In this document: positions 30,706 to 64,000 of the stretch, one piece after another
How positions within the stretch are numbered: the first letter of the stretch is position 1
Layout of the letters: every line of letters starts with the position of its first letter
DNA from: Heptranchias perlo
Taxonomy: Eukaryota
NCBI RefSeq assembly: GCF_035084215.1
Contig: NC_090349.1
Location: forward strand, 8,866,001-8,930,000
DNA: 64,000 nucleotides
Reading direction: 5' to 3'
Made by a program: the position numbers and the translations under genes
The notes under the pieces: generated by a model
What the model was told of the DNA's origin: nothing
What the model saw: the letters and a program-made list of their open reading frames with translations, nothing else
The model's database searches: none

Positions 30706-31398
30706 CAGGTATGGGAACACTCGAAATACATTTCAGCGCCAAGTACAAGCTTCACGTCAAATTTGAATTCCAAATTTTCTTATTAATCCCACATTAATCT
30801 CTGAAATCCTACATTAAACTTTCCAAAATTCGGCTCTCAATTGAGTGCAAATTTAGAGATATATCTTCAAACTGTCGGACAAAGAGTGTCGGGAATCTGA
30901 TTTGCCCTGGCTTTTGCATTTAACCCCGCATTATTCGCCTCATCCCACTTTTTCTAAATCAATTTACAGGCCATTAAACTGCTTGTTTGTATCAGTAATT
31001 CACATTTCTGTTTCCTTTAGCTGCTGTTCTCCCCTCTGTTATTGACCCCACAATGGTACTGTCGCACTCTCCCTTTTCCAGTTCTCAATCCAAACCTTAG
31101 CCTCTCCTTTTTCCAGATGCTGATGAACGTTTCGCGTATTTACAACATTTTCTGTTCATACTATTTAACTTTGGAATATCTCTATGCGTTAAAACCACTC
31201 AGCATACAAGCCGTTCCAACCACCAACAACTTCACGGAACTTGAGTTAGTGGGAATGTTTTAAGACCTTTTTAAAAAATTCAGTAAAATTACTTGATTAA
31301 TTTTCGGCGCCAGATGCTGAAGATGAGATAAATGTATCTTTTTCTCTCTCTCTCTGCTCAGTGACACTGACGAGCTGCTCTTTCACAGCCCCGCGCCC

Positions 31399-31632
31399 TT
31401 CTCATGACCTTACACGAGCCCCGCAGGCTCAGGATTACTGACTCATACCAGCTCTCCAGATGGTCTCCTGAGACTCGGCCCCAACAAAACGTCAATCAGT
31501 GGGGATAATTTCTCATTCAGAGAGAAACACTTTGGCCATTGTTCCTCGGACAGCAGCAATTGGCTGCTGAGTGTGGGAAACGCAAAGAAACCCGGACTCA
31601 CGCTTCTCCCTGACTATTCGGAGCAATAAATA
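31399..31632 (+). promoter_or_regulatory. Notch-type hes5 promoter of pseudogene 1
   Basis: N-box CACGAG 31413-31418; E-box CAGATG near 31458; ATTGG; RBPJ TGTGGGAA 31572-31579; 15-bp spacer; inverted GACTCACG 31595-31602; TATA-position AATAAATA 31625-31632. Collinear with the hes5 promoter at 63160-63397. Confidence 0.85.
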
Positions 31633-31682
31633 CAGGAGAGGTTGGACAGAGCCGCAGCAGAGAGGGTCTCTGAGAAGAACGT

Positions 31683-32275
31683 ATAGCTCCATTCAATATC
31701 GGTTGCAAGAATGTTAACTTCATTACAGGAGGATACAGCAGAATCCCAGTCAAGGCACAGCATAAAGAAAGTTTACATTTGCAAAAAGGTGGGATTGACA
31801 TTAATCGTATAATATTAATCAGCCGATGCTTTTGCGAGATGCTAAAATATATATTTTGTTATTTTTCAGCTGTTGAAAGCACCGATAAAGAGACGCTGCA
31901 GCGATTGGTCTGGGCTATAGAGAGATTCAGCAACATCCACAGATTAAAGCCCGTGGATGGCGCCGTGCTGGAAATGAGAGGGGATTAACTGAAATCTTAG
32001 AATCAGCAGCAAGTCCCCGGTAAATCCCTTACACACACAATTGTAAAGAATACCTTTCAAACAAGTTTCTTGTTCCCCAATCAGAGTTTTCTAACGTGTT
32101 TTTTTTCTTGTACTTTAGCTCATCTCCCAGTGATTCCACATCAGAATACTCGGGGACCGACACCTGTACGCCCAAGATGCAGATTCAGAAGAAAATTCCC
32201 AACCATTTGAACAGAGCTCCCAATACAGCCAAAGCTCCATGCGTCGCCTCTACGCTCTCCACTTTACCCTAGCAG
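31683..32275 (+). pseudogene. hes5-like pseudogene 1 (three-exon structure retained)
   Basis: ATAGCTCCA at 31683 sits where ATGGCTCCT is expected. Exon 1 ends AAGAAA/gtttac at 31770. Exon 2 (31870-32019) reads LLKAPIKRRCSD...AVLEMRGD*LKS*NQQQ versus IMKITIEKRRRD...ADILKMTVNYLKYHNQQ, with a helix-1 deletion and stops. Exon 3 from 32119 has Orange-like MQIQKKIPNHLNR. Introns are 99/99 nt versus 113/95 nt in the intact gene. Confidence 0.85.
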
Positions 32276-32499
32276 ATCTGAAACACTTGGACATTTTATA
32301 GAACTCAGGATGTGACAGTTGCACATCAAAATCACTGGAGATGTACTCTGGTGTAAGACAGTATTCCAGAATGGAAGCAGTGTCATTAATACCTTCACAT
32401 TGAAGGAGATGGACAGTTTGTTAAAGGGATATTTCTGATCCTTACCTGCGTGATGTCATAATATGTGACCCGTGTTCTACAATATTTGTAGAGTTACTC

Positions 32500-33165
32500 A
32501 ATAATATATCTGTATATTCACAGTGAATATGTGCAGTAGTTGGAATAACGATGAAACTGTGGAGGAGAAATCTCTCCATATCGATTCCTGGTGAACTGTG
32601 TGAGAGATGGAAAGTAGTTTATTCTGATGGACAATTTGTATCTTTTGCAGAAATCCATATCCATTAACTGAGTGGTAATGTGATCAAAGGCAGACCTAAT
32701 ACAATAGAAATTGTTACTGGAAAAGCATTAATATTCAGATGATCAGTTTTGTGAAGATAAAGTAGAAAAGCTTATGGACCCCAGGCATCTCGCTTCCTGG
32801 GAGTTAATTCTAAAGATTGTAGTTCTATGTTAATTCCCCGTGATCATATCGCTGTGGTACTGAGAGGGTTCACGTCGATCTGCTAATAAGTGCAGGCACG
32901 TATCTTCATATTGAAAGAGGTAGATAGTTTTTAAAGGGATATTTCCGATCCTTGTGTAACGTCGCAACATAGATCTGTCTAGGATCACATTACCAAATAC
33001 AATACTCAGTTAATGGATATAGATTTCTGCAAATTGTTTATCAGAACAAACCACTTTCCATCCCACACACAGTTCACCAGGAATCGATATGGAGAGAATT
33101 CTCCTACACTTTCACCGTTTTCCATCTACTGCACATACTCACTGTGAATATATAGATATATTATT
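32500..33165. repeat. ~185-bp inverted repeat with ~300-nt spacer, downstream of pseudogene 1
   Basis: Arm 32500-32685 is complementary to arm 32983-33165, including a perfect 32-bp stretch (32571-32602). Confidence 0.9.
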
Positions 33166-33883
33166 TGTAGAGATAGATATCCACAGATAGATATCCGTAG
33201 AGTTACTGAACTGTATATAGGTGAGATCTCTCTTTGTTGATCTCTGTGAAGTGTGTTGGAGGTGGAATGTCTTTATGTTAAAGATAACTTGTATCCACCT
33301 GAGAAAGTTTTAGATGAGAGGACAAACGAAGCGTTAATACAGTAACATATTGGTGTACATTCTAATGTTCATTAATATAAAATAGGGATAGAAAAACGTA
33401 AGATCTCAGAGCCTTGGAATAGCGGTTGTAAAATTGCTTTGTAGAGGCGGCTGTTCCCCTGCATCAGGGATGGAAAATGATTTCTCTTGTTGAAGGTGAT
33501 TGGTATCTTTTTGTAAAAGGCCTAATATTAAGTGTTTGGAACCCCTAAAGCTTCGGCCCTTGCTCAGCATTCTGTGAATGAACCAGGAAGGGTGTAATGT
33601 TTTATTGCTTTGGCGTGATCTTGTAGGGGTATACGCGATATTAAAAGAAATAGATAAAGTTAGGGAAACTGCTTCGGGATGTGAATTATAGATCAAGGGG
33701 GCATGGGTTAAAAAACTGGAGGAAGGGAAGTTTAAACCTGACGTCAGGAAGAACTTCTCCATAATTAATAATTCTGGGTGGATGAGCTCAGAGGGGCTGA
33801 TTGGGCTCGCTCGTCGGTAACTATTTTGTGATCATTTTGTTGTGGTGCTGGAGGAGTTAACTGAACGGGCTGAAATTATTAAT

Positions 33884-34124
33884 AATAAGTAAAATAAAAA
33901 CAGAAAATGCTGGAAAAGCAAATGAGGCAGCATCTGTGGAGAAAGAAACAGAGTTAACGTTTCAGGTCAAAGACCTTTCGTCAGTTCGCTGATCTTACAA
34001 AAGTTCTTCGACCTGAAACGTTAACTCTGTTTCTTTCTCCACAGATGCTGCCTGACTTGCTGAGCTTTTCCAGCATTTTCTGTTTTTATTTCAGATTTCC
34101 AGCACCCGCTGTATTTTGCTTTTG
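33884..34124. mobile_element. Palindromic Penelope-terminus element (no ORF) with 17-bp TSD
   Basis: Inverted copies of the same terminus as 12660-12790; GGGCTGAAATTATTAAT duplicated at 33867-33883 and 34125-34141. Confidence 0.8.
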
Positions 34125-35821
34125 GGGCTGAAATTATTAATCGGGGCTGATAATTAGTGATCCACATTGGGTGACATTCGGAATGGGAGATTTACAGTTC
34201 GGTGCATTGCTGCGGTGTCTTGGAAAATACATTTGAGGCTATAGCATAAATGTAAATATGCTGGACATTAAATTTTACAAATTTCCAATAAAATAATTTT
34301 AAGCTATTACCGAATTAAACGGTTTGTACAAACAGTGCATTAATTTACTGTACACACTACATTATATCTACCTCTCGTAGCTGAACCGCCATCAGCCCGA
34401 CCCCCACCCCCACAGATGCTGTGTATATCTTTACAATTCAATGGCATCTAAGATTATTGATCTGATTCCAAAGGGGAGTAGCTGGGATTTTTTTCGGGTG
34501 TAATTAATGAGTCCTGCTCACACACGCCTCATGAATATAGAAAACATAGAAAATGGGAGCAGGAGTAGGCCATTCGGCCCTTCAAGCCTGCTCTGCCATT
34601 CAATATAATCATGGCTGATCCTCTATCGCAATACCATATTCGAATATATGCGAAATTGAACACAGTGAATTAATAAATAACGTTGAAATAAATTGTGGGA
34701 AATCAGTGTCAGTGTAATGTGTTTAATTAAAAGAATAAACCATTGAATACTTTCCTGAGATTAATTATCTCCATTCGCTCAAACCCACCCATATATTATG
34801 GCGCGAACTCCCATCTAAGTATTTGAAATGAGGCACCTGCTGTCCAATTCTGAAATGAATAGTATTACTTTCCTAACACTGACAGTGCGAGTTGAGAGGA
34901 AACGCAGATTCCTGGGCAGCATAGGTCCCTCCTTAATTGCCAGTACTGAGTGTGTCGCGGTGACCGAGAGTTTGGAATTACAGCTTCCTATGATCCACAG
35001 TGGCCGTGAGGCTGTTGCTGAAGATTCTTTCCCATCGGTTTGCGAGAGGGGGAGGAGCCTGTGGGTTGAGTCCAATTACAACTCAAACACGTAGGACTGA
35101 ATTTCAGTCTGATGGAAATAATGGGGCCTGACAGTTACAGTTTAAACAATCCATTGCAGTCCCGGGACAGCTAGTCGCTACATCCTTAAGCGTCAGTTAT
35201 ATTGTCATCTTCACATCCCTGAGAAAGGAACGCACTACCTGAAAGGGTGGTGGAATCAGATTCCATTGGAACTTTCAAAAGGCAATTGGACATGTACTTG
35301 AAGAGAAATTTGCTGGGTTATGGGGAAAAAGCTGGGGTGTGGGACTAAATTGGACAGCTCTTTCAAAGAGCCGGCACAGGGACGACAGACCGAATGGCTT
35401 CCTTCCGTGCTGTAAGATTCGATGATTCTATGAGAACAAAGGGAAGGAGAGAGAAACACACACACGAGAGAGGGGAAGTGGAATGAACTGAAAAAAAAGA
35501 GACGGTTAAATGGTATAAGTGATATTAGCATGATTCGATATGATGAATAATGAGAGAAATCAAATAAATTAAAGACATTTATAAGGCACAGAGAGTGTGT
35601 GAATAGCACAGTAGGGGTAGCAATAGACGCACAAAAACTGGCGAAGTGGAGCAGGCTATGAAGCTCAAGGCAAGCTCGAGGAACTGCATGTCATCTTTTT
35701 TACGAGACAGTTTACACCTCTGGCCTGTTGACTTTAACAACTTCAGATCTTAACTTTAACCACTTTCTCAGCTTTTTCCTATTTCTTATCATCACTTTAC
35801 AGGTCATTCCACGTCCTCTCC

Positions 35822-37255
35822 TGTGTGTGTGTTAGTGTTTGTATTAGTGCTTGTGTGTGTGTGTTAGTGTTTGTATTAGTGCTTGTGTGTGTTAGTGTTT
35901 GTATTAATGCTTGTGTGTTAGTGTTTGTATTAATGCTTGTGTGTTAGTGTTTGTATTAATGCTTGTGTGTTAGTGTTTGTATTAGTGCTTGTGTGTTAGT
36001 GTTTGTATTAATGCTTGTGTGTTAGTGTTTGTATTAATGCTTGTGTGTTAGTGTTTGTATTAGTGCTTGTGTGTGTTAGTGTTTGTATTAATGCTTGTGT
36101 GTTAGTGTTTGTATTAATGCTTGTGTGTTAGTGTTTGTATTAGTGCTTGTGTGTGTTAGTGTTTGTATTAATGCTTGTGTGTGTGTTAGTGTTTGTATTA
36201 GTGCTTGTGTGTGTGTTAGTGTTTGTATTAGTGCTTGTGTGTTAGTGTTTGTATTAATGCTTGTGTGTTAGTGTTTGTATTAATGCTTGTGTGTTAGTGT
36301 TTGTATTAGTGCTTGTGTGTGTTAGTGTTTGTATTAATGCTTGTGTGTGTGTTAGTGTTTGTATTAGTGCTTGTGTGTGTGTTAGTGTTTGTATTAGTGC
36401 TTGTGTGTGTGTTAGTGTTTGTATTAATGCTTGTGTGTTAGTGTTTGTATTAATGCTTGTGTGTTAGTGTTTGTATTAATGCTTGTGTGTTAGTGTTTGT
36501 ATTAATGCTTGTGTGTTAGTGTTTGTATTAATGCTTGTGTGTTAGTGTTTGTATTAGTGCTTGTGTGTGTTAGTGTTTGTATTAATGCTTGTGTGTGTGT
36601 TAGTGTTTGTATTAGTGCTTGTGTGTGTGTTAGTGTTTGTATTAGTGCTTGTGTGTTAGTGTTTGTATTAATGCTTGTGTGTTAGTGTTTGTATTAATGC
36701 TTGTGTGTGTGTTAGTGTTTGTATTAGTGCTTGTGTGTGTGTGTTAGTGTTTGTATTAGTGCGTGTGTGTGTTTGTATTAGTGCTTGTGTGTGTTTGTAT
36801 TAATGCTTGTGTGTTAGTGTTTGTATTAGTGCTTGTGTGTGTGTTAGTGTTTGTATTAGTGCTTGTGTGTGTGTTAGTGTTTGTATTAATGCTTGTGTGT
36901 GTGTTAGTGTTTGTATTAGTGCTTGTGTGTGTGTTAGTGTTTGTAATAGTGCTTGTGTGTGTTAGTGTTTGTAATAGTGCTTGTGTGTGTTAGTGTTTGT
37001 AATAGTGCTTGTGTGTGTTAGTGTTTGTAATAGTGCTTGTGTGTGTTAGTGTTTGTATTAGTGCTTGTGTGTGTGTTAGTGTTTGTAATAGTGCTTGTGT
37101 GTGTGTTAGTGTTTGTATTAGTGCTTGTGTGTGTGTTAGTGTTTGTAATAGTGCTTGTGTGTGTGTTAGTGTTTGTATTAGTGCTTGTGTGTGTTAGTGT
37201 TTGTAATAGTGCTTGTGTGTGTGTTAGTGTTTGTATTAGTGCTTGTGTGTGTGTT
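35822..37255 (+). repeat. GT-rich minisatellite, unit (GT)nTAGTGTTTGTATTARTGCTT of 26-32 bp, roughly 50 copies
   Basis: Directly visible; a GTAATAG variant is confined to the 3' part. Confidence 0.97.
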
Positions 37256-38062
37256 TTCCCCTTCCTTTCCCTTCGATCTGCTCCTTTTTAATAAACTCTC
37301 CACCTGTTATTTTTCCCGTTCTGATGAAGTGTTAGAGATGAAACGTAACTTTCCTGTTTTTTTCCACAGGCGCTGACTGATCTACTGAGTGCACGGCATT
37401 TTCTGTTTCTAATTACAGTTACACGCTCACCGTAATCAGGCTACAAATGATTAAATGCTCACCCTAGCCTGGTGGCATTTACATGCTCATGTAACCGAGT
37501 CACAGTTACATGCTCACCATAACTAGATGAGAAACGGTAAATGCTCATGGTAACATACAGTTTGAAAATGCAGATTGCTTTAATTTCAATTTCCCGCACA
37601 CTGGTCTCCCTGAGATTACATAATGTGCAGAAGAGGGGGAGAAGTGCTGAGCAGGTTGGTGAGGATTTGTGGTGTATCTTACGGTAGATGCTAACAGGGA
37701 ATTTATTTTTATTGCGGATCAAAAGTTAGAAATGGAGGTTGGCCATATAAGGGGACAGACAGTTAATGTCTTTCTATGACGTTCTTCGATCTCCCATTTT
37801 AGTGAAGCTGTAATAAAACCGTGTGCTTTAAAGACATTAATGCCTCCGATAAATAACCGGCAGAAAAATGTCAAACCAGCTGGCTAAGTGTATAGTCAAC
37901 AGTAGCTTGCAACTTCCAGTTTCTTCTGAAGCGATTCCAGTATTTCAGAATTACAAAACCAGTCCATCAACCGAATAAAACACATTTAATATATCCATAC
38001 AAATGCTATTTCTCCAATCTGTTAGTGTTAATATTAAGCTGCTGGTCATTTAAGACAAAGCG

Positions 38063-38260
38063 CGGGAATACAGTGACCGCAGACTCTGCTATTCTCCAGT
38101 TTAGTGACGGGTTTGCTTTCTTGGAATCGGGCGATTGTTGCTGAAAATTTCCCACGTGCCATTAACACAAAACAGGTCAGAGGTCAAGCCCCTGACCAAC
38201 AGTACAAAGCAAATACCCCTGAAGAAGCTGAACTTTAACGGACAGGGTTACTGGGGGGTC
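38063..38260 (+). promoter_or_regulatory. Distal enhancer-like module of hes5 pseudogene 2
   Basis: RBPJ TTCCCACG 38149-38156 overlapping E-box CACGTG; ATTGTT/ACAAA Sox-like sites; perfect DR1 AGGTCA-G-AGGTCA 38174-38186; paralogous to 59669-59850. Confidence 0.7.
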
Positions 38261-38847
38261 AGGTCTCAGGGACCAGGGAGAGTGCAATCGAAACAAAAGC
38301 ATTTTATGAGGGATTTTCCCTGTATTTAATGCACAAGGAAGGCATAGTTGTCTCTTCATACCTGGGAACTGATTCAAACTATTTACATTTCAAACTTAAT
38401 CTCGTGGACGTATTTTTCAAATACTGCTTCAGTTTCATAGAATCTTACAGCCATCGTGCCTGTGCTGGCTCTTTGAAAGAGCTATCCAATTAGTCCCACT
38501 CTCCTGCTCTTTCCCCATAGCCCTGCAATTTTTCCCTGTTTACTAATGAAACAGATTGTCAATAATTGTGTGAATGAGCAGCGTTTCCAGTTCATTCGTT
38601 TTGGAATACAGTTGCATAATTATCTTCTTACCGTCTCTGGGCTTGCATTATAGTAAAATGTCTGTCTCACATCACAAAGTGATTGACACCTACACTCGAG
38701 GAGTGAGAGAGCTACTGCTCCGAGATTCTCGTGTATTATTAATACAAGACTACCGCAGGAATTGAATGTAGACCGAGTCAGGTAACAGAAACAGAAAACG
38801 CTGGAGACACTCAGTAACTCAGGCAGCGCCCGTCCAGAGAATGCGAT

Positions 38848-39650
38848 TTTTTAATAAATTCGTTCATGGGATATGGGCGTCGCTGGCAAGGCCAGCATTT
38901 ATTGCCCATCCCTAAATCCCCTTGAGAAGTTGGTGGTGAGCCACCTTCTTGAACCGCTGCAGTCCGTGTGGTGAAGGTTCTCCCACAGTGCTGTTCGGTA
39001 GGGAGTTCCAGGATTTTGACCCAGCGATGATGAAGGAACAGCGATATATTTCCAAGTCAGGATGGTGTGTGACTTGGAGGGAAACGTGCAGGTGGTGGTG
39101 TTCCCATGTGTTTGCTGCCCTTGTCCTTCTAGGTGGTAGAGGTCGCGGGTTTGGGAGGTGCTGTCGAAGAAGCCTTGGCGAGTTGCTGTAGTGCATCCTG
39201 TGGATAATGCACACTGCAGCCACGGTGCGCCGGTGGTGAAGGGAATGAATGTTTAGGGTGGTGGATGGAGCGCCAGTAAAGCAGGCTGCTTTGTCCTGGA
39301 TGGTGTCGAACTTCTTGAGTGTTGTTCGAGCTGCACTCATCCAGGCAAGTGGAGAGTATTCCATCACACTCCTGACTTGCGCCTTGTAGATGGTGGAAAG
39401 ACGTTGGGGAGTCAGGAGGTGAGTCACTCACCACAGAATACCCAGCCTCTGACCTGCTCTTGTAGCCACAGTATTTATGTGACTGGTCCAGTTAAGTTTC
39501 TGGTCAATGGTGACCCCCAGGATGTTGATGGTGGGGGATTTGGCGATGGTAATGCCGTTGAATGTCAAGGGGAGGTGGTTAGACTCTCTCTTGTTGGAGA
39601 TGGTTATTGCCTGGCACTTGTCTGGCGCGAATGTTACTTGCCACTTATTA
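38848..39650 (-). mobile_element. LINE 3' fragment (CR1/Jockey group, second family)
   Basis: LLTPQRLSTIYKAQVRSVMEYSPLAW..IQDKAA RT C-terminus; same tail as 21065-21236. Confidence 0.85.
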
Positions 39651-40639
39651 CTATATCAGTTGGCGTTTAGGGTATAGACCTTTCCCCAGGACTGAAAGAT
39701 ATTACAGATGAACAGCATTTAAAAAGGAACTGAAGAGGGAAGGGGCACACAGGAAAATAAATGAATGGTGTGTAAAGTGCTAAGGTGGGAAACAGGAGAT
39801 GGTTAATTGGCAGCAGTGATAGAGATAGGCAGGGAACAAAAGGAGGCATCATGAGAAAAATCAAAGAAATAAAAGGACATTCACAAGACACAGAGTTTTA
39901 GAAGAGCTAAAAGGGAATAAGGGTAAAACGAGAAGCATAAAAAACTGGCAAAACTAGCAAAGCAGGGAGGGCTCCAGGGTCCCAGGATTCCTGTGCTTTA
40001 CTATAATATAAATTCCCCTGGACTAGTTTCCATCGCCTAAGGTGCTGGGAGTGGAACTTTCCAGATTTCTTTCCCTTAATTGGCCTGGGTTTTCTCCTCT
40101 CCCAAGAGATTACATGGGTGAGGTGGGGAGTGTACGTATTGTGATGCATAAAACATCACAACTGAGTAGAACAGACTGGATGGATCAGTGGGTCTTTACC
40201 TGTCCGTCACTTTCGTACGTTCGTAATTGTATTTTATAGAAAATACAGATATAGAGAGACATATAAAGAGCAGCATTGTGCCATGCAAGGGGAAGGAAAG
40301 GCAGTTTCTCTGAAAAGTACATTAATTCAAGATAAACACCATAGCACAGATAGACGAGCAATTGTGTGCTTCATGGTGGATTTAATAGAACAGTAACGTG
40401 GAGATTCTCAAAGGGAGCAGGAGGCGGTGGATGTGATCTAAGGTCCATAGGTGAATCGATCATGAGTTGATGGAGTCTCTGCAATTCTGACGAAAGGCCA
40501 TCGACCTGAAATGTACTCTGCTTCTTTCTCCACAAATGCTGCCTGACTTGCTGAGTATTTCCAGCATTTTCTGTTTTTATCTCTGAAATACTATACTGAT
40601 ACTTGGGGTGGTCTGCGACCACAGACCCTTCCTGTGCTG

Positions 40640-40676
40640 TTTGTTGCTGGAGTTTCCCACGTGGCGCAGACAAAGG
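40640..40676 (+). promoter_or_regulatory. Proximal RBPJ/E-box/Sox module of pseudogene 2
   Basis: TTGTTGCTGGAGTTTCCCACGTG..ACAAAG; RBPJ site at 40654-40661; parallels 62426-62470. Confidence 0.6.
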
Positions 40677-41139
40677 GAACGGTTCAGTTGCTGCGTTTCA
40701 AGGAGCAGCGAATGAGCTCATTCATCCGAATGCAAGAAGCGCCCTGAGGGGACAATAGGCAGCGTAACTCCATAGGAATATCCCCCCTCCCCCCAACGCC
40801 AGCTCTTCCCAGGCACGAGTTAGAGAACTTCTCCTCCCAGGTGCTTTGTTGCAAGTTTCTCATCACATTTAAACTCTAGCCTGTCCCAGAAAGTCTGTAC
40901 TGAATTTCAAATCGTTGCCTTTTGATAACACTCCGCTCCAAAAGTTTATTGTAAATGACAGGAAACTGTACCGTTGCAATTGCACACTGCCCATTCTTAT
41001 AAAGAACTCCCGGCTATTTAATGAATCTTTAATAAAATGTATTCGGCTCTCAATAACATTGCATGAAGAGGCGGTCGATAGAACCGATTGTTTTGCTCCT
41101 GTGTGGGGTGCCACGTGTGGGACCAACCCCCTCCCCCGG

Positions 41140-41379
41140 TTCTCATGACCTTACACGAGCCCCGCTGGCCCGGGATTAGTGGTTCATGCCACATCTCCAG
41201 ATGGTCCCCTTGAGACTGGGCTCCAACAAAAAAAAAGTCAAAACGCCGTGGATAATTCCTCATTCAGAAAGCGATGTTTCAGTCATTGTGCCTCAGACAG
41301 CAGCGATTGGCTGCTGAGTGTGGGAAACGCAAAGAAACCCGGACCCACACTTGGCCCTGTCCATTCGCAGATGTAAATA
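41140..41379 (+). promoter_or_regulatory. Notch-type hes5 promoter of pseudogene 2
   Basis: 26-bp and 39-bp blocks identical to promoter 1; RBPJ TGTGGGAA 41319-41326; GACCCACA at 15-bp spacing; TATA-position TGTAAATA 41372-41379. Confidence 0.85.
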
Positions 41380-41477
41380 CGGGAGCCGTCGGATCCAGCT
41401 GTAGTGCTGCTGCATAGGTCAGAGGCAGAGACTCTCCCATCGCTGCCTCAGACTGCACTGCACACAGCGTCTTAAGG

Positions 41478-42219
41478 ATGACTCCAACAACGCTGCTGAC
41501 ACTGGAAGAGAATTCTCGGAAATAGAATCTCAGCAAAGAACAGTTTACATTCACAAAATGTTTGTTTCACATTCTTTTCGAATATTACTACTGATTGTAT
41601 GATCTTGTGCACATAATCCAGGCTGGCACTCCAGTGCAGAACTGAGGGAGCGGAGGTGCAGTCTTCGGATGAGACGTTAAACCAAGGCCCTGTTTGCCCT
41701 CTCAGGTGGACGTAAAAGATCCCATGGTACTATTTCAAGCAAGAGCAAGGGAGTTCTTCCCTTGTCTTGACCAATATTTATCCCTCAACCAACATCACTA
41801 AAAAAAACAAACGGTCTGGTCATTAGCTGTTTGTGGGATCTTGCTGTGTGTAAATTGGCTTAATGTTTCCTACATTATACCAGTGACTACACTTCAAAAA
41901 GTACTTAATTGGCTCTAAAGCCCATTAGGATATCATGAGGAGGTGAAAGGCACTATATAAATGCAAGTTCATTCTTTCTGATTTGAAACAGCTACTGCTC
42001 TCTTGGATGCAAAAATTATTTATCATTTTCAGTAGATGAGAAAACAACAGATGAAAGGAGTAGAGATCAATGGTGCACAAAACAACAGCATCCAGTTCAG
42101 GAGAAACCCAGGAAACATTAGCACAGAATACATATTCCAGGAATATTCTGTATCTCCTTTGTACTCCTCTTACTATCAGACATCAGACTGGTCAGCTCAG
42201 CATCACAGCACCCTGATAG
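41478..42219 (+). pseudogene. hes5-like pseudogene 2 (more decayed)
   Basis: ATGACTCCAACAACGCTGCTG resembles ATGGCTCCTATCAATGCTGCTG with a 1-nt loss and gives a stop at 41523-41525. It has the same GTTTACATT donor as pseudogene 1 and a SINE in intron 1. The exon-2 relic after ttttcag (42032) has ..ERSRDQ..NNSIQ. Helix 2 and the Orange domain are missing. The 3' region 42210-42364 plus 45075-45290 aligns with 32265-32620. Confidence 0.75.
41605..41980 (+). mobile_element. Deu-domain SINE in intron 1 of pseudogene 2
   Basis: Homologous to 13770-14105. Confidence 0.75.
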
Positions 42220-42364
42220 AGCTGGAAACATCAGGACATTTCCTGGAACTGAGGAAGTGACAATTACACCACATTAAGTGCTAGAGTTATATCCTAGTGT
42301 AAAACAGTATTGTGGAATGGAAACAGTGTCATTAATATTAATACCTTCATATTGAAGGAGATGG

Positions 42365-45074
42365 AAGGAAGAAAAGGAGGTGGGGTAGCACTGTTAATAA
42401 AGGATGAAATCAGTACAATGGTGAGAAAGGATCTTGGCTCAGAAGATCAAGATGTAGAATCAGTTTGGGTGGAGCTAAGAAACAGTAAGGGGCAGAAAAC
42501 ATTGGTGGGAGTTGTTTATAGGCCACCAAACAGAAGTGGTAATATAGGGCACGGTATAAAGCAGGAAATTAGAAGTGCATGTAACAAGTGTTATACAGTA
42601 ATTATGGGGGACTTTAATCTACATGTAGCTTGGGCAAACCAAATTAGCACTAATACTGTGGAGGACGAATTCCTGGAATGTATATGAGATGGTAGTCTGG
42701 ATCAGTATGTTGAGGAACCAACTAGGAAACAGGCTATTTTAGATCTAGTATTGTGCAATGAGAAAGGGTAAATTTATAATCTTGTTGTAAAGGAGCCCAT
42801 AGGGAAGAATGACCATAATATGATAGAATTCTTCATTAAATTTGAAAGTGATATAGTTCAATCCGAAACTAGGGTCTTAAATCTAAACAAAGGAAACTAC
42901 GAAGGTTTGAGGCACAAGTTGGCTGTGGTTGATTGGCAAACTACATTAAAAGATATGATGGTAGACAGGCATTGGCTAGCGTTTAGAGAATTAATACATA
43001 ATTTGCAACAAATATATATTACTTTAAGGCACAAAAACCCAACAGGAAAAGTCGTCCAACCATGATTAATGAGAAATTAAAGATAGTGTTAAATCAAAGA
43101 GGCATATAATGTTGCCAGAAAAAGCAGTAAGCATGAGAATTGGGAGCATTTTAGAATTCAGCAAAGGAGGACCAAGAAATTGATAAAGAGGGAAAATAGA
43201 ATATGAGAATAAACTAGCAAGAACCTTAAAAATGGACTGTAAAAACTTCTATAGGTATGTAAAAAGGAAAAGACTGGCAAAGGCAAATGTGGGTCCCTTA
43301 CAGACAGAGACGGGAGAATTTATAATGGGGAATAAGGAAATGGCAGAGAAATTAAACAAATACTTTGTGTCTGTCTTCACGGAAGAAGACACAAAAGATC
43401 TCCCAGAAATACTAAAGAACCAAGGGTCTGGTGACAATGAGGAACTGAAAGAAATTAGTATTAGTAAAAAAATAGTACTAGAGAAATTAATGGGATTGAA
43501 AGTCAATAAATCCCAAGGATCTGATGATCTACATCCCAGGGTTTTGAAATAGGTGGCTATAGAGATAGTGGATGCATTGGTTGTCATCTTCCAAAATTCT
43601 ATAGATTCTGGAACGATTCCTGCAGATTGGAGGGTAGCAAATATAACCCCACTATTTAAGAAAGGAGGGAGAGAGAAAACAGGGAACTACAGACCTGTTA
43701 GCCTGACATCAGTTGTAGGGAAAATGCTAGAATCTATTATAAAGGATGTGATAACAGGACACTTAGAAAATAATAATAGGATTTGGCAGAGTCAACATGG
43801 ATTTATGAAAGGGAAATCATGTTTGACAAACCTACTGGAGTTCTTTGAGGATGAACTAGTAGAATAGATAAGGGGGAACCAGTGGATGTGGTGTATTTGG
43901 ATTTTCAGAATGTTTTGTTCACCCACACAGGAGGTTGGTGAACAAAGTTAGAGCACATGGAATTGGGGGTAATATACTGGCATGGATTGAGAATTGGTTA
44001 ACAGACAGAAAACAGAGAGTAGGAATAAACAGATCTTTTTCAGGTTGGCAGACTGTTACTAGTGGGGTACCGCAGGGATCGGTGCTTGGGCCCCAGCTAT
44101 TCACAATCTATATCAATGATTTGGATGAGGGAACCAAATGTAATATTTCCAAGTTTGCTGATGACACAAAATTATGTGGGAATGTGAGTTGTGAGGAGGG
44201 TGCAAAGAGGCTTCAAGGGGATATAGACAGGCTAAGTGAGTGAGCAAGAACATGGCAGATGGAATATAATGTGGAAAAATGTGAAGTTATTCACTTTGGT
44301 AGAAAAAACAGAAATGCAGAGTATTTTTTAAATGGTGAGAGATTTGGAAATGTTGATGTTCAAAGGGATCTGGTGTCCTTGTACATGAGTCACTGAAAGC
44401 AAACATGCAGGTGCAGCAAGCAATTAGGTAGACAAATGGTATGTTGGCCTTTATTTCAAGAGGATTTGAGTACAGGAATAAAGATGTCTTACTGCAATTA
44501 TATAGGGCCTAGAGTATTGAGTACAATTTTGGTCTCCTTACCTAAGAAAGGATATATTTGCCATAGAGGGAGTGCAATGAAGGTTCACCAGACTTATTCC
44601 TGGCATGGCGGGATTGTTGAACAAGGAGAGATTGTGTAGACTAGGCCTCTATTCTTTAGAGTTTAGAAGAATGAGAGGTGACCTCATTGAAACATACAAA
44701 ATTCTTACAGGGCTCAACAGGGTAGATGCAAGGAGGATGTTTCCCCTGGCTGAGGAGTCTAGAACCAGGGGTCACAGTCTCAGAATAAGGGGGCAGCCAT
44801 TTAGGACTGAGATGAGGACAAATTTCTTTACTCAGAGGGTGGTGAATCTTTGGAATTCTCTACCCCAGAGGGCTGTGGAGACCCAGTCATTGAGTACATT
44901 CAAAACAGAGATCGATAGATTTCTAGATATTAAAGGCATCAAGGGATATAGGGATAGTGCAGGAAAATGGCGTTGAGATAGAAGATCAGCCACGATCTTG
45001 TTGAATGGCGGAGCAGGCTCCAGGGGCCAGATGGCCTACTCCTGCTCCTATTTCTTATGTTCTTATGTTCTTAT
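42365..45074 (+). mobile_element. 5'-truncated CR1 LINE inserted in the former 3'UTR of pseudogene 2
   Basis: APE and RT motifs; (TTCTTATG)n tail; 7-bp TSD GAGATGG at 42358-42364 and 45075-45081. Confidence 0.93.
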
Positions 45075-45379
45075 GAGATGGGTAGATTGTTAAAGGGATA
45101 TTTCTGATCCTTACCCGTGTAATATTATAATATGTGATCCTTGTTCTACAATATTTGTAGAGTTTCTCAACAATATATTCACAGTGTCTATACAGTAGTT
45201 GCAATAGCGGCAAACAATTCTGTAGGGGAAATCTTTCCATATTTCTCCCTGTTGAAGTATGTCAGAGGTGGAAAGTGATCTGGCTTCTTGTTGATTTCTT
45301 TACTTCTGTGAAAGGGTTGACTCCTAATAAATGATTATTATTATAGTTCTGACTCCATATTTTGTTCATTACAAAGACG

Positions 45380-59600: not shown

Positions 59601-59668
59601 TATTGCAATGCTTTCCCACTGCCTAGCTAACAGGGTTCTGCCTGGCTCTACACACTTTTATAAAGCAT

Positions 59669-59850
59669 GGGAATGCAGTGACCTCAGATGCTGTATTGTT
59701 CAGTGATGGGTTTGCTTTGTGGAATCAGGAATTGTTGTTGAAGAATTCTCATGAGCCAATAACACAAAGTAGGTCAGAGGTCAAGTCACTCAGAAACAGT
59801 ACAAAACAAATTATTTGGAAAAGATTGAATTCTACTGGATAAAGGCTACT
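59669..59850 (+). promoter_or_regulatory. Distal enhancer-like module of the intact hes5-like gene
   Basis: Alignable to 38063-38260; CAAAGT followed by perfect DR1 AGGTCA-G-AGGTCA 59771-59783; about 3.6 kb upstream of the promoter. Confidence 0.7.
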
Positions 59851-63159: not shown

Positions 63160-63397
63160 GATTCTCATAACTCGAGACGTGACTAATTGCCCCCGGGTTT
63201 GCTCTGTCACACGAACTGTCCAGATGGCCCTCAGAGATTCCCACGCAAAGCAATGTCAAAGCCCATCATTAGTTTGGCATTTACAAGGCAGCGATTCGGC
63301 TATTGTCCTTCTGAAAGCGCTCGTTGGCCAGAGAGTGTGGGAAACCTCATGAAACAACGACTCACGCTTTTTTCATGTAAATTCAGAGTTATAAATA
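63160..63397 (+). promoter_or_regulatory. hes5 Notch-responsive proximal promoter
   Basis: CAGATG E-box; RBPJ TTCCCACG 63238-63245; TGTGGGAA 63336-63343 + 15 bp + GACTCACG 63359-63366; TATAAATA 63390-63397. Confidence 0.88.
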
Positions 63398-63472
63398 GAG
63401 GAGCGAACGGGTTCCCGCCCGCAGTATCGCACCAGGCGCAAATCCCCCTTTAGTCTGTTTCAGTTGTCGAGC

Positions 63473-63550
63473 ATGGCTCCTATCAATGCTGCTGGCGTTA
63501 TTACCAGGGAACACTTGGAGGAAAAGTTTACAGCCAAACAGAAAAGCAAA
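63473..63550 (+). CDS. hes5: hes5-like exon 1: MAPINAAGVITREHLEEKFTAKQKSK
   Basis: GCATGG start context, MAP N-terminus, phase-0 gtgagc donor just before the basic region. Confidence 0.9.
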
Positions 63551-63663
63551 GTGAGCGTAAAGTCGAGCTAAAAAAAAGAATTTGCGTTAAAAATGCAGAG
63601 TCGATATTTTGCAAATTCAGTGCTTACCGTCATATCAAAAATCTTATTTCGTCTTATTTTCAG

Positions 63664-63841
63664 ATAATGAAGATAACGATAGAAAAAAGGCGCCGAGATC
63701 GGATAAACAGCAGCATCAACCAGCTGAAGACTTTACTGGGAAGGGAGTTTCAAACGGAAGAACCTAACATGAAACTGGAGAAAGCTGACATCCTGAAGAT
63801 GACAGTAAATTACCTGAAGTATCACAACCAGCAGCTCAGAG
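63664..63841 (+). CDS. hes5: hes5-like exon 2, bHLH: IMKITIEKRRRDRINSSINQLKTLLGREFQTEEPNMKLEKADILKMTVNYLKYHNQQLR
   Basis: ttttcag acceptor and gtaagg donor; RDRINSSI.QLK.LL..EF....PN.KLEKADIL.M is the HES5-subfamily bHLH, encoded in a single exon. Confidence 0.93.
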
Positions 63842-63936
63842 GTAAGGGCTATGCTCCCTGGCATGGTTCGCTTTACATTGATTAGGTTACAGGTCGTTCC
63901 TCGTAAATCTATCGTGTATTTTCCTCTCTTTTGTAG

Positions 63937-64000
63937 CAAGCTGCCCGACCAGCAGTCCGGAGCGTGACTATAATGAAGGATATTCCCGGTGCTTGCATGA
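63937..64000 (+). CDS. hes5: hes5-like exon 3 start, Orange domain: (A)SCPTSSPERDYNEGYSRCLH; truncated by the window end
   Basis: ttgtag acceptor, phase 1; DY.EGYS.CL is the HES5 Orange-domain start. The WRPW terminus is outside the window. Confidence 0.9.

What the first reader, a model, noticed from the sequence alone, without database searches (positions are those of the whole stretch)
31399..41379. Two dead hes5 copies keep near-identical Notch promoters: a possible array of exapted enhancers or Notch-driven lncRNAs
Seen: the coding exons of the two hes5 pseudogenes are barely alignable to each other or to the intact gene. Yet their promoters share an identical 39-bp block (ATTGGCTGCTGAGTGTGGGAAACGCAAAGAAACCCGGAC) and an identical 26-bp block (TTCTCATGACCTTACACGAGCCCCGC). 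All three promoters keep TGTGGGAA, an exact 15-bp spacer to an inverted GACYCACR half site, CCAGATGG, and a 53-54 bp distance to the TATA position. The TATA box is mutated in both pseudogenes (AATAAATA and TGTAAATA versus TATAAATA), and CpGs are retained. Known: RBPJ/CSL paired sites with 15-17 bp spacing support Notch-complex dimers at Hes1/Hes5, and CACNAG N-boxes mediate HES autorepression. Inference: selection has preserved the transcription-factor sites after protein function was lost. The copies may act as promoter-derived shadow enhancers for the hes5 gene 22-32 kb downstream, as NICD/HES decoy sites, or as promoters of Notch-induced non-coding RNAs.
Basis: partly seen in the sequence, partly recalled or inferred. 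Interest (0 to 1): 0.82.

Follow-up and report, generated by a model that had tools for sequence, protein, structure and literature searches.

The report
Dead hes5 copies making spliced RNAs
A cartilaginous fish carries eight broken copies of the Notch target gene hes5 that mostly keep its control sites, splice points and tail hairpins, and some appear spliced in sequence reads of two species, so they are likely non-coding RNA genes rather than plain relics, although copying between neighbours explains much of their near-identity.

Summary
The locus (hes5 near ppil2) holds 2 intact genes and 8 dead copies. U1 and U2 promoters are 81% alike, not near-identical. U1 is 97% like three copies outside the window over a sharp 270-bp tract, and promoter and body trees conflict (AU p 0.017, 0.009): gene conversion. 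Conversion does not explain everything. Against the intact genes, dead promoters evolve at the intact rate while exon 2 runs 2-5 times faster. E-box, CCAAT and CSL core vary at 1 of 19 columns versus 116 of 178 elsewhere. Contigs show U1 spliced at its old intron 2 in this organism, and U1- and U6-like copies spliced in a second species. Best reading: likely Notch-responsive non-coding RNA genes; a decoy role for Roquin-type decay factors is my guess at mechanism. Notch response, start sites and U2 expression are untested; one second-species promoter diverges at the neutral rate.

The parts
31399..31636 (+). U1 promoter: CSL-like TTCTCAT 31399, N-box 31413, E-box 31457, CCAAT (reverse) 31559, CSL 31572-31579, cryptic half site 31595-31602, TATA-like 31625
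   Evidence: 97% identical to U5/U6/U7 over a sharp tract 31400-31666
31637..31766 (+). U1 exon 1 remnant; start codon lost, donor reads GA instead of GT; start site not known
31870..32019 (+). U1 exon 2 remnant (decayed bHLH, 27-nt deletion, frameshifts, stops); acceptor at 31870 used in second-species contig
32020..32118 (+). U1 intron 2, GT..AG, removed in one contig of run X9
   Evidence: table 5 (depth 3.1, 72 letters on the short side, not seen in DNA run X1)
32119..32355 (+). U1 exon 3 remnant (former coding part and proximal 3'UTR); WRPW lost
32356..32545 (+). U1 3'UTR hairpin block: H2 32392-32406 (6-bp stem, CAU loop), H4 32476-32492 (7-bp stem, UAU loop), plus H1, H3, H5
   Evidence: at most 2 differences in 128 nt to the second species
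32970..33165 (-). Inverted copy of 32500-32698 (82%), absent from the second-species contig
38095..38230 (+). Distal CSL/E-box module upstream of U2, homologous to 59662-59811 upstream of U3
40640..40700 (+). Proximal CSL/E-box module upstream of U2 (TTCCCACGTG at 40654)
41140..41383 (+). U2 promoter: CSL 41319-41326, half site 41342-41349, TGTAAATA 41372
41615..41979 (.). SINE-like insertion in U2 intron 1 (name recalled)
42033..42365 (+). U2 fused exon 2/exon 3 remnant (internal deletion) and first 3' hairpin H2 at 42344-42358
42366..45081 (.). LINE-like insertion splitting the U2 hairpin block (CR1 type recalled)
45082..45307 (+). Rest of U2 hairpin block, H4 intact at 45145-45161
63160..64000 (+). 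U3, intact hes5: promoter, exons 63473-63550, 63664-63841, 63937-64199 (runs past the window), 172 aa, WRPW

Best explanation
These are duplicated, protein-dead hes5 copies of which some are still spliced, and they likely act as Notch-responsive non-coding RNA genes whose tail hairpins would compete for the Roquin-type decay factor predicted to act on hes5 mRNA. Steps: (shown) one ancestor lost its reading frame and was then duplicated, since frameshifts are shared; (shown) gene conversion swaps 150-270-bp tracts among copies and gives the 97-99% blocks; (shown statistically) promoter motifs, spacing, splice sites and 3' hairpins changed far less than the old exons; (shown in contigs) U1 and U1-/U6-like copies are spliced; (inferred) CSL, E-box and CCAAT sites drive them together with hes5; (inferred, about 0.25 on its own) the hairpin-rich RNAs bind the decay factor and lengthen or buffer hes5 mRNA life. 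U2 itself is likely a promoter-only remnant of such a unit.
For: Shared lesions: a 1-nt deletion in exon 1 in U1, U2, U4-U7 and a net 4-nt loss in exon 2 in U1, U4-U7; 7-16 frameshifting indels per dead copy against 0 in U3; longest ATG ORFs 23-85 aa, differing in length and position among copies. Relative rate against U3/U9: promoter p=0.15-1 for the six family-A copies, exon 2 p=0.03 to 7e-9. E-box+CCAAT+CSL vary at 1 of 19 columns against 116 of 178 non-motif columns over 8 dead copies (p=3e-7) and 1/19 against 63/190 in family A (p=0.007); the one change gives GTGAGAA, still a CSL site by the recalled consensus. Splice dinucleotides: acceptor 1 AG aligned in 7 of 8, donor 2 GT in 7 of 7, acceptor 2 AG in 6 of the 7 copies that keep intron 2 (U10 unclear), donor 1 GT in 6 of 8. 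X9 contig joins U1 exons 2 and 3 at GT..AG with 0 and 1 mismatches; X6 contig (organism B) lacks both introns, with no gaps against U1 in its two aligned pieces, so the lesions there predate the species split; a loose end shows the U6 exon 2-3 junction. In that ortholog 15 differences fall in 219 nt of old coding/proximal UTR and at most 2 in 128 nt of hairpin block (p=0.037). H2 and H4 are the RNAalifold consensus, are present in intact U3, and fit the 6-8 bp stem + YRN loop rule of PMC6294493. The block is partly or fully repeated in U1, U4, U5, U6, U7, U8 and found nowhere else in the genome (14 of 14 matches in the cluster).
Against: One organism-B promoter contig differs from U1 at 16/235 sites plus 5 gap letters, no less than the 3' flank (46/776); another differs at 5/151 (p=0.24 against flank); orthology of both is uncertain. 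That first contig runs 160-180 nt upstream through the promoter, so RNA there may start elsewhere. The runs are only guessed to be RNA, the own-species splice joint rests on one contig at depth 3.1 from the genome's own sample, and the organism-B runs are one study without a DNA control. No dead copy keeps TATAAA. U8 and U10 promoters retain conserved columns no better than their exon 2 (p=0.79), and U2 and U5 are not significant in the second alignment (p=0.12, 0.089). The G-U over A-C bias is 7:0 in H1+H2+H4 but 4:5 in H3+H5, against a background of 28:21. Motif columns align best, which inflates the motif test, and copies are not independent. H2 is imperfect in intact U9. Human HES5 has two predicted hairpins scored as not conserved. 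Nothing tests Notch induction or Roquin binding.
Confidence: 0.45

Rival explanations
1. Cis-acting array: the promoters and their upstream CSL/E-box modules work as enhancers or competing promoters for the two intact hes5 genes; the RNA is a by-product and the hairpins only dispose of it.
For: CSL, E-box and CCAAT are kept even in U8, U10 and the disrupted U2. 12 TTCCCACGYG modules lie in the cluster against 0.15 expected in the 224 kb. Family-A promoters carry HES-type sites that the intact promoters lack. PMC5577775 describes similarity kept through enhancer overlap.
Against: Does not by itself predict multiplication of the hairpin block or its slow change between species. No contact or accessibility data.
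Confidence: 0.25
2. Neutral concerted evolution: conversion keeps resetting promoter and 3' blocks, an unmethylated CpG island slows decay, and transcription is leftover noise.
For: Conversion is shown: AU p=0.017 and 0.009, sharp tract edges, dead exon 2 of U5/U7 151/152 identical. One cross-species promoter is at flank-level divergence. Spacer bases are homogenised as much as motifs in U1/U5/U6/U7.
Against: Conversion among dead copies cannot slow divergence from the intact genes, yet family-A promoters match the intact rate while exon 2 does not. U1-U2 identity peaks on the CCAAT/CSL window (96% against 68-86% in the other promoter windows). No GC bias in private changes (3 W>S, 9 S>W). U1 body is as CpG-rich as its promoter but has decayed.
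Confidence: 0.22
3. U1 makes a long hairpin RNA from its inverted repeat that yields small RNAs against hes5-family 3'UTRs.
For: 208-bp inverted repeat at 82%; an X9 contig shows A>G changes, three of them opposite C in the predicted duplex.
Against: Only U1 has a long inverted copy and organism B lacks it, so it cannot explain the family; U1 matches U9's 3'UTR at only 81% over 75 nt.
Confidence: 0.05
4. The copies encode short peptides or truncated dominant-negative HES proteins.
For: U2 and U7 keep an ATG near the old start, giving 15-codon frames.
Against: That ATG is lost in U1, U4, U5, U6; 7-16 frameshifts per copy; no shared ORF found.
Confidence: 0.03

Closest known systems
lncRNAs derived from genes that lost coding potential (PMC5577775, passages read; Xist/JPX type)
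   Same: Coding frame lost while locus, splice sites and transcription persist; similarity may reflect DNA elements or RNA function.
   Different: Here the dead unit was amplified after death into a family beside two live parents, keeps the ancestral promoter (that paper says many do not), and multiplied a 3'UTR element.
Vertebrate hes5 clusters (PMC8320183, passages read)
   Same: Tandem hes5 copies; the paper reports a hes5 next to ppil2 in elephant shark and coelacanth, and a PPIL2 exon lies about 200 kb from this cluster.
   Different: Published clusters are of coding genes; here 8 of 10 units are dead. The passages seen mention no such array.
Hes5 cryptic sequence-paired site (PMC7685452, passages read)
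   Same: One high-affinity TGTGGGAA and a head-to-head low-affinity site.
   Different: Spacer is 15 here against 16 in mouse/human Hes5; that paper found 16 preferred and the isolated Hes5 site not dimer-dependent. U8 and U10 lost the half site.
Roquin constitutive decay elements, tandem type as in UCP3 (PMC6294493, passages and supplement rows read)
   Same: 6-8 bp stems with YRN loops, mostly YAU, in tandem in a 3'UTR.
   Different: Carried here by non-coding copies and multiplied; several stems have G-U pairs, which that paper found to weaken repression; binding untested.
Pseudogene decoy RNAs such as PTENP1 (recalled, not read here)
   Same: A dead copy keeps the parent's 3'UTR elements and could compete for their binder.
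   Different: Those compete for microRNAs; here the kept elements are structural hairpins and the copies share the parent's promoter type.

Membership tests
Duplicated (unprocessed) pseudogene | Parent's exon-intron layout with disabled reading frame, near the parent | tested here: met
Pseudogene-derived lncRNA | Transcribed and spliced | tested here: met
   U1 intron 2 removed in X9; U1- and U6-like joints in X6; runs are guessed RNA, single contigs
Pseudogene-derived lncRNA | U2 transcribed | not tested
   the single read-laying run covered U1 only
Pseudogene-derived lncRNA | No conserved ORF | tested here: met
Pseudogene-derived lncRNA | Kept in another species in the dead state | tested here: met
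   organism B contig has no gaps against U1 in two aligned pieces
Pseudogene-derived lncRNA | Starts at the ancestral promoter | not testable with these tools
   contigs cannot show starts; one contig runs through the promoter
Notch sequence-paired site | Head-to-head CSL sites 15-17 bp apart | tested here: met
   15 bp, second site two bases off consensus, in U1, U2, U4-U7; not met in U8, U10
Notch sequence-paired site | Dimer-dependent NICD activation | not testable with these tools
   needs reporter assay
Roquin CDE | 6-8 bp stem with YRN triloop in a 3'UTR | tested here: met
   strict Watson-Crick hits 23 on the sense strand, 1 antisense, in 11 regions (about 7.7 kb, copies not independent); background 0.125 per kb
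Roquin CDE | Structure kept by covariation | tested here: inconclusive
   91.2% of cells paired, 8 pairs changed on both sides, 0/500 shuffles, but structure was drawn from U1 and sequences are related; wobble bias mixed
Roquin CDE | Roquin binding and faster decay | not testable with these tools
   needs EMSA and reporter
Gene conversion tract | Segment trees conflict; sharp edges | tested here: met
Gene conversion tract | GC-biased substitution | tested here: not met
   3 W>S against 9 S>W; small numbers, not a required feature
Shadow enhancer | Contact with and redundant activation of the target gene | not testable with these tools
   no chromatin data

The most novel reading that the evidence does not exclude
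A hes5 copy lost its protein and was then amplified into a family of Notch-induced RNAs that carry multiplied Roquin-type decay hairpins and soak up the decay factor, so that Notch turns on both hes5 and the RNAs that set hes5 mRNA half-life: a pseudogene-built timer for a HES oscillator.
Probability: 0.2. Interest if true: 0.85.

Novelty: new variant of a known kind. Interest (0 to 1): 0.63.

Why it matters
It is a natural experiment: with the protein constraint gone, what stays marks the working parts of a hes5 transcription unit (E-box, CCAAT, CSL site, fixed spacing, splice sites, 3' triloop hairpins). The hairpins suggest a testable route for hes5 mRNA turnover, which matters for HES dynamics; my searches listed no paper linking hes5 to Roquin or such hairpins, and none on hes5 pseudogene RNAs. 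If the RNAs compete for a decay protein, this would extend pseudogene decoys from microRNA sites to structural elements. The locus also shows conversion and selection acting together on dead genes, a caution for reading identical blocks as function.

Tried and rejected
Rfam scan of U1 (31000-33500): 2 weak matches far below gathering scores, rejected; no microRNA family. Dispersed repeat origin of the 3' block: rejected, 14 of 14 matches lie in the cluster. Outgroup hes5 elsewhere in the genome: three loci on contig C35 proved to be other hes types with split bHLH exons; two protein searches found only U3 and U9 as strong matches (only best candidates are scored). Sequencing-run search: no RNA holder listed on record as RNA; five guessed-RNA runs had shares 0.08-0.11, two had 0.00; 4 of 11 runs were laid. 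Parts without cover (for example 30900-31330 in X5, X6, X9) and contig depths were not used as evidence. The motif test had a mis-anchored E-box and was replaced. Indel counts against U9 were lower in promoters but significant in only 2 of 8 copies. Wobble test gave no signal in H3 and H5. GC-biased conversion not seen. Earlier-findings look-ups returned nothing. No related genomes are held for this window, so no multi-species genomic alignment was possible. The supplement of PMC6294493 was cut when stored; other supplements were not opened.
Full report
Observation. The U1 (31.4 kb) and U2 (41.1 kb) promoters are 193/238 identical overall; the 39-bp run is longer than random placement of their mismatches would give (p=0.0024). 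U3 (63.5 kb) is an intact 172-aa gene with bHLH and WRPW; its 12 database relatives are named HES-5 or HES-5-like in sharks, rays and a chimaera.

The locus. A search of the own genome with the U1 promoter gave 7 matches, all within 91 kb. With 160 kb of flanks and profile searches the cluster has 10 units. In contig C28 coordinates of the CSL region: U1 8,897,569 (+), U2 8,907,316 (+), U3 8,929,333 (+, intact), U4 8,942,195 (-), U10 8,947,533 (-), U5 8,951,796 (+), U6 8,968,264 (-), U7 8,975,313 (-), U8 8,982,446 (-), U9 8,987,905 (-, intact, 169 aa). A PPIL2 exon lies about 200 kb away, matching the hes5-by-ppil2 locus reported for elephant shark and coelacanth in PMC8320183 (passages). U3 and U9 each group with a different chimaera protein (100/100), so they split before holocephalans and elasmobranchs did. 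The dead copies form two lineages: family A (U1, U2, U4-U7) and U8+U10 (both 100% support in promoter and body trees).

They are dead, and died before they multiplied. Each has 7-16 frameshifting indels against U9; U3 has none. A 1-nt deletion in exon 1 is shared by all six family-A copies and a net 4-nt loss in exon 2 by the five that keep it. Longest ATG frames after splicing are 23-85 aa and differ among copies. U2 is further broken by two transposon-like inserts and a large internal deletion, which is part of why its exons looked unalignable.

Gene conversion is real here. U1, U5, U6, U7 promoters are 230-232/238 identical with no indels while their old coding exons and introns are mostly 53-90% alike. 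The tract has sharp edges: 90-100% from 31400 to 31650, about 40% before and 48-58% after. The promoter tree puts U1 with U5-U7; the body tree puts U4 there; each data set rejects the other grouping (AU p=0.017, 0.009; the groupings were chosen after seeing the trees). A dead exon shows the same effect (U5/U7 exon 2, 151/152). Near-identity alone is therefore not evidence of function.

Selection is also indicated. Conversion among dead copies cannot slow their drift away from the intact genes (established reasoning on concerted evolution). In Tajima tests with U3 and U9, family-A promoters show no excess (for U1 35:31 and 35:33; p=0.15-1 over six copies), whereas exon 2 does (U1 46:15 and 46:11; p=0.03 to 7e-9). 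At columns where U3 and U9 agree, family A keeps 73-78% in the promoter and 56-61% in exon 2; in a second alignment this contrast is significant for U1, U4, U6, U7, not for U2, U5, U8, U10. CAGATG is invariant in all 10 units, the CCAAT box in all 8 dead ones, and TGTGGGAA changes once, to TGTGAGAA. Caveats: motifs anchor the alignment, copies are related, and the time of death on the stem branch is unknown. No dead copy keeps TATAAA.

A second kept block. The 3'UTR segment 32356-32545 is 82-94% identical among family-A copies and 74-80% to U8, is split by the LINE in U2, weak in U10, and partly or fully repeated in U1, U4, U5, U6, U7, U8. RNAalifold finds two consensus hairpins, H2 and H4 (13 sequences), both with pyrimidine-purine-U loops and both present in intact U3, whose H4 differs in sequence but still pairs. 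They fit the relaxed Roquin CDE rule of PMC6294493 (6-8 bp stem, YRN loop, YAU best; passages). Changes in H1, H2, H4 give G-U 7 times and A-C never, but H3 and H5 give 4 and 5, and the background is 28:21, so the strand signal is only suggestive. Human HES5 has two predicted hairpins in that paper's Table S6, scored as not conserved. Rfam has no match.

Reads. Four runs were laid on 30900-33450; all are contigs, and the RNA label is the tool's guess. In X9 (same organism and sample as DNA run X1) a 186-nt contig joins exon 2 to exon 3 exactly across the GT..AG intron with 0 and 1 mismatches; X1 shows no such joint; loose ends of two other contigs match U6 and U5 sequence seen. In organism B (X5, X6; one study) a 575-nt contig lacks both introns, uses the acceptor at 31870 and has no gaps against U1 in its aligned pieces; another loose end reads across the U6 exon 2-3 junction; a U4-like contig carries the tandem 3' block. 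In the U1 ortholog 15 differences lie in 219 nt before the hairpin block and at most 2 in its first 128 nt (p=0.037). Against this: a promoter contig of B differs from U1 at 16/235 sites, like the 3' flank (46/776), though none of its 12 listed changes breaks the E-box, CCAAT, CSL or half site, one gives the U6-type CSL site and one puts T at the first TATA position; it also extends upstream through the promoter. A second promoter piece differs at 5/151 (p=0.24). U2 was not covered.

Mechanism. Shown: death, amplification, conversion, selective retention of motifs, splice sites and hairpins, spliced forms in two organisms. Inferred: Notch/proneural-driven transcription from the old promoters. 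The 15-bp paired site is at the edge of the 15-17 range, and the isolated mouse/human Hes5 site was not dimer-dependent (PMC7685452, passages). Inferred more weakly: the RNAs compete for the hairpin-binding decay factor of hes5 mRNA, which would explain why the hairpins are kept and multiplied. The main rivals are a cis-acting enhancer/promoter array with RNA as by-product (0.25) and neutral conversion with leftover transcription (0.22).

Novelty and verdict. lncRNAs from dead genes are known (PMC5577775, passages), as are hes5 clusters of coding genes. Searches (listings only, apart from the four papers named) showed no report of a dead-copy hes5 array or of hes5 3'UTR Roquin hairpins; the library lacks most subscription journals. 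New variant of a known kind; interest 0.63.

Noticed in passing
window 32565-32721: One X9 contig (depth 2.2) has 11 differences, and the run's tally is dominated by A>G (10 of 16); three listed sites face C in the predicted duplex with 32970-33165. Possible A-to-I editing; low depth, and organism B has G at the same sites.
   Followed up: partly
window 38149, 40654, 61935, 62441 and eight sites in L002-L007 (window-scale 83645 to 124648): 12 overlapping CSL/bHLH modules TTCCCACGYG, all between 38 and 125 kb of the 224 kb examined, 0.15 expected; the modules at 38149 and 91024 are nearly identical and the latter has no unit right beside it.
   Followed up: partly
window 41114-41159 and equivalents in U4-U7: Family-A promoters carry HES-type sites (CACGTG, CACGCG, CACGAG) that the two intact promoters lack within 380 bp, so the dead copies may be more strongly HES-repressed than hes5 itself.
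   Followed up: partly
L006 (U8) and L002 (U10): Second dead lineage: promoters 77% alike against about 60% in bodies; keep E-box, CCAAT and CSL, lost half site and TATA.
   Followed up: partly
window 63160-64000 and L001 290-560: The intact gene U3 has three YRN triloop hairpins in its 3'UTR; its exon 2 protein is 97-100% identical over the aligned part in 9 of the 12 relatives found.
   Followed up: partly
window 35855-37250: About 1.4 kb tandem repeat of 26-30 bp TG-rich units between U1 and U2.
   Followed up: no
Two identical-looking hes exons lie at 4.08 and 4.40 Mb in opposite orientation.
   Followed up: partly
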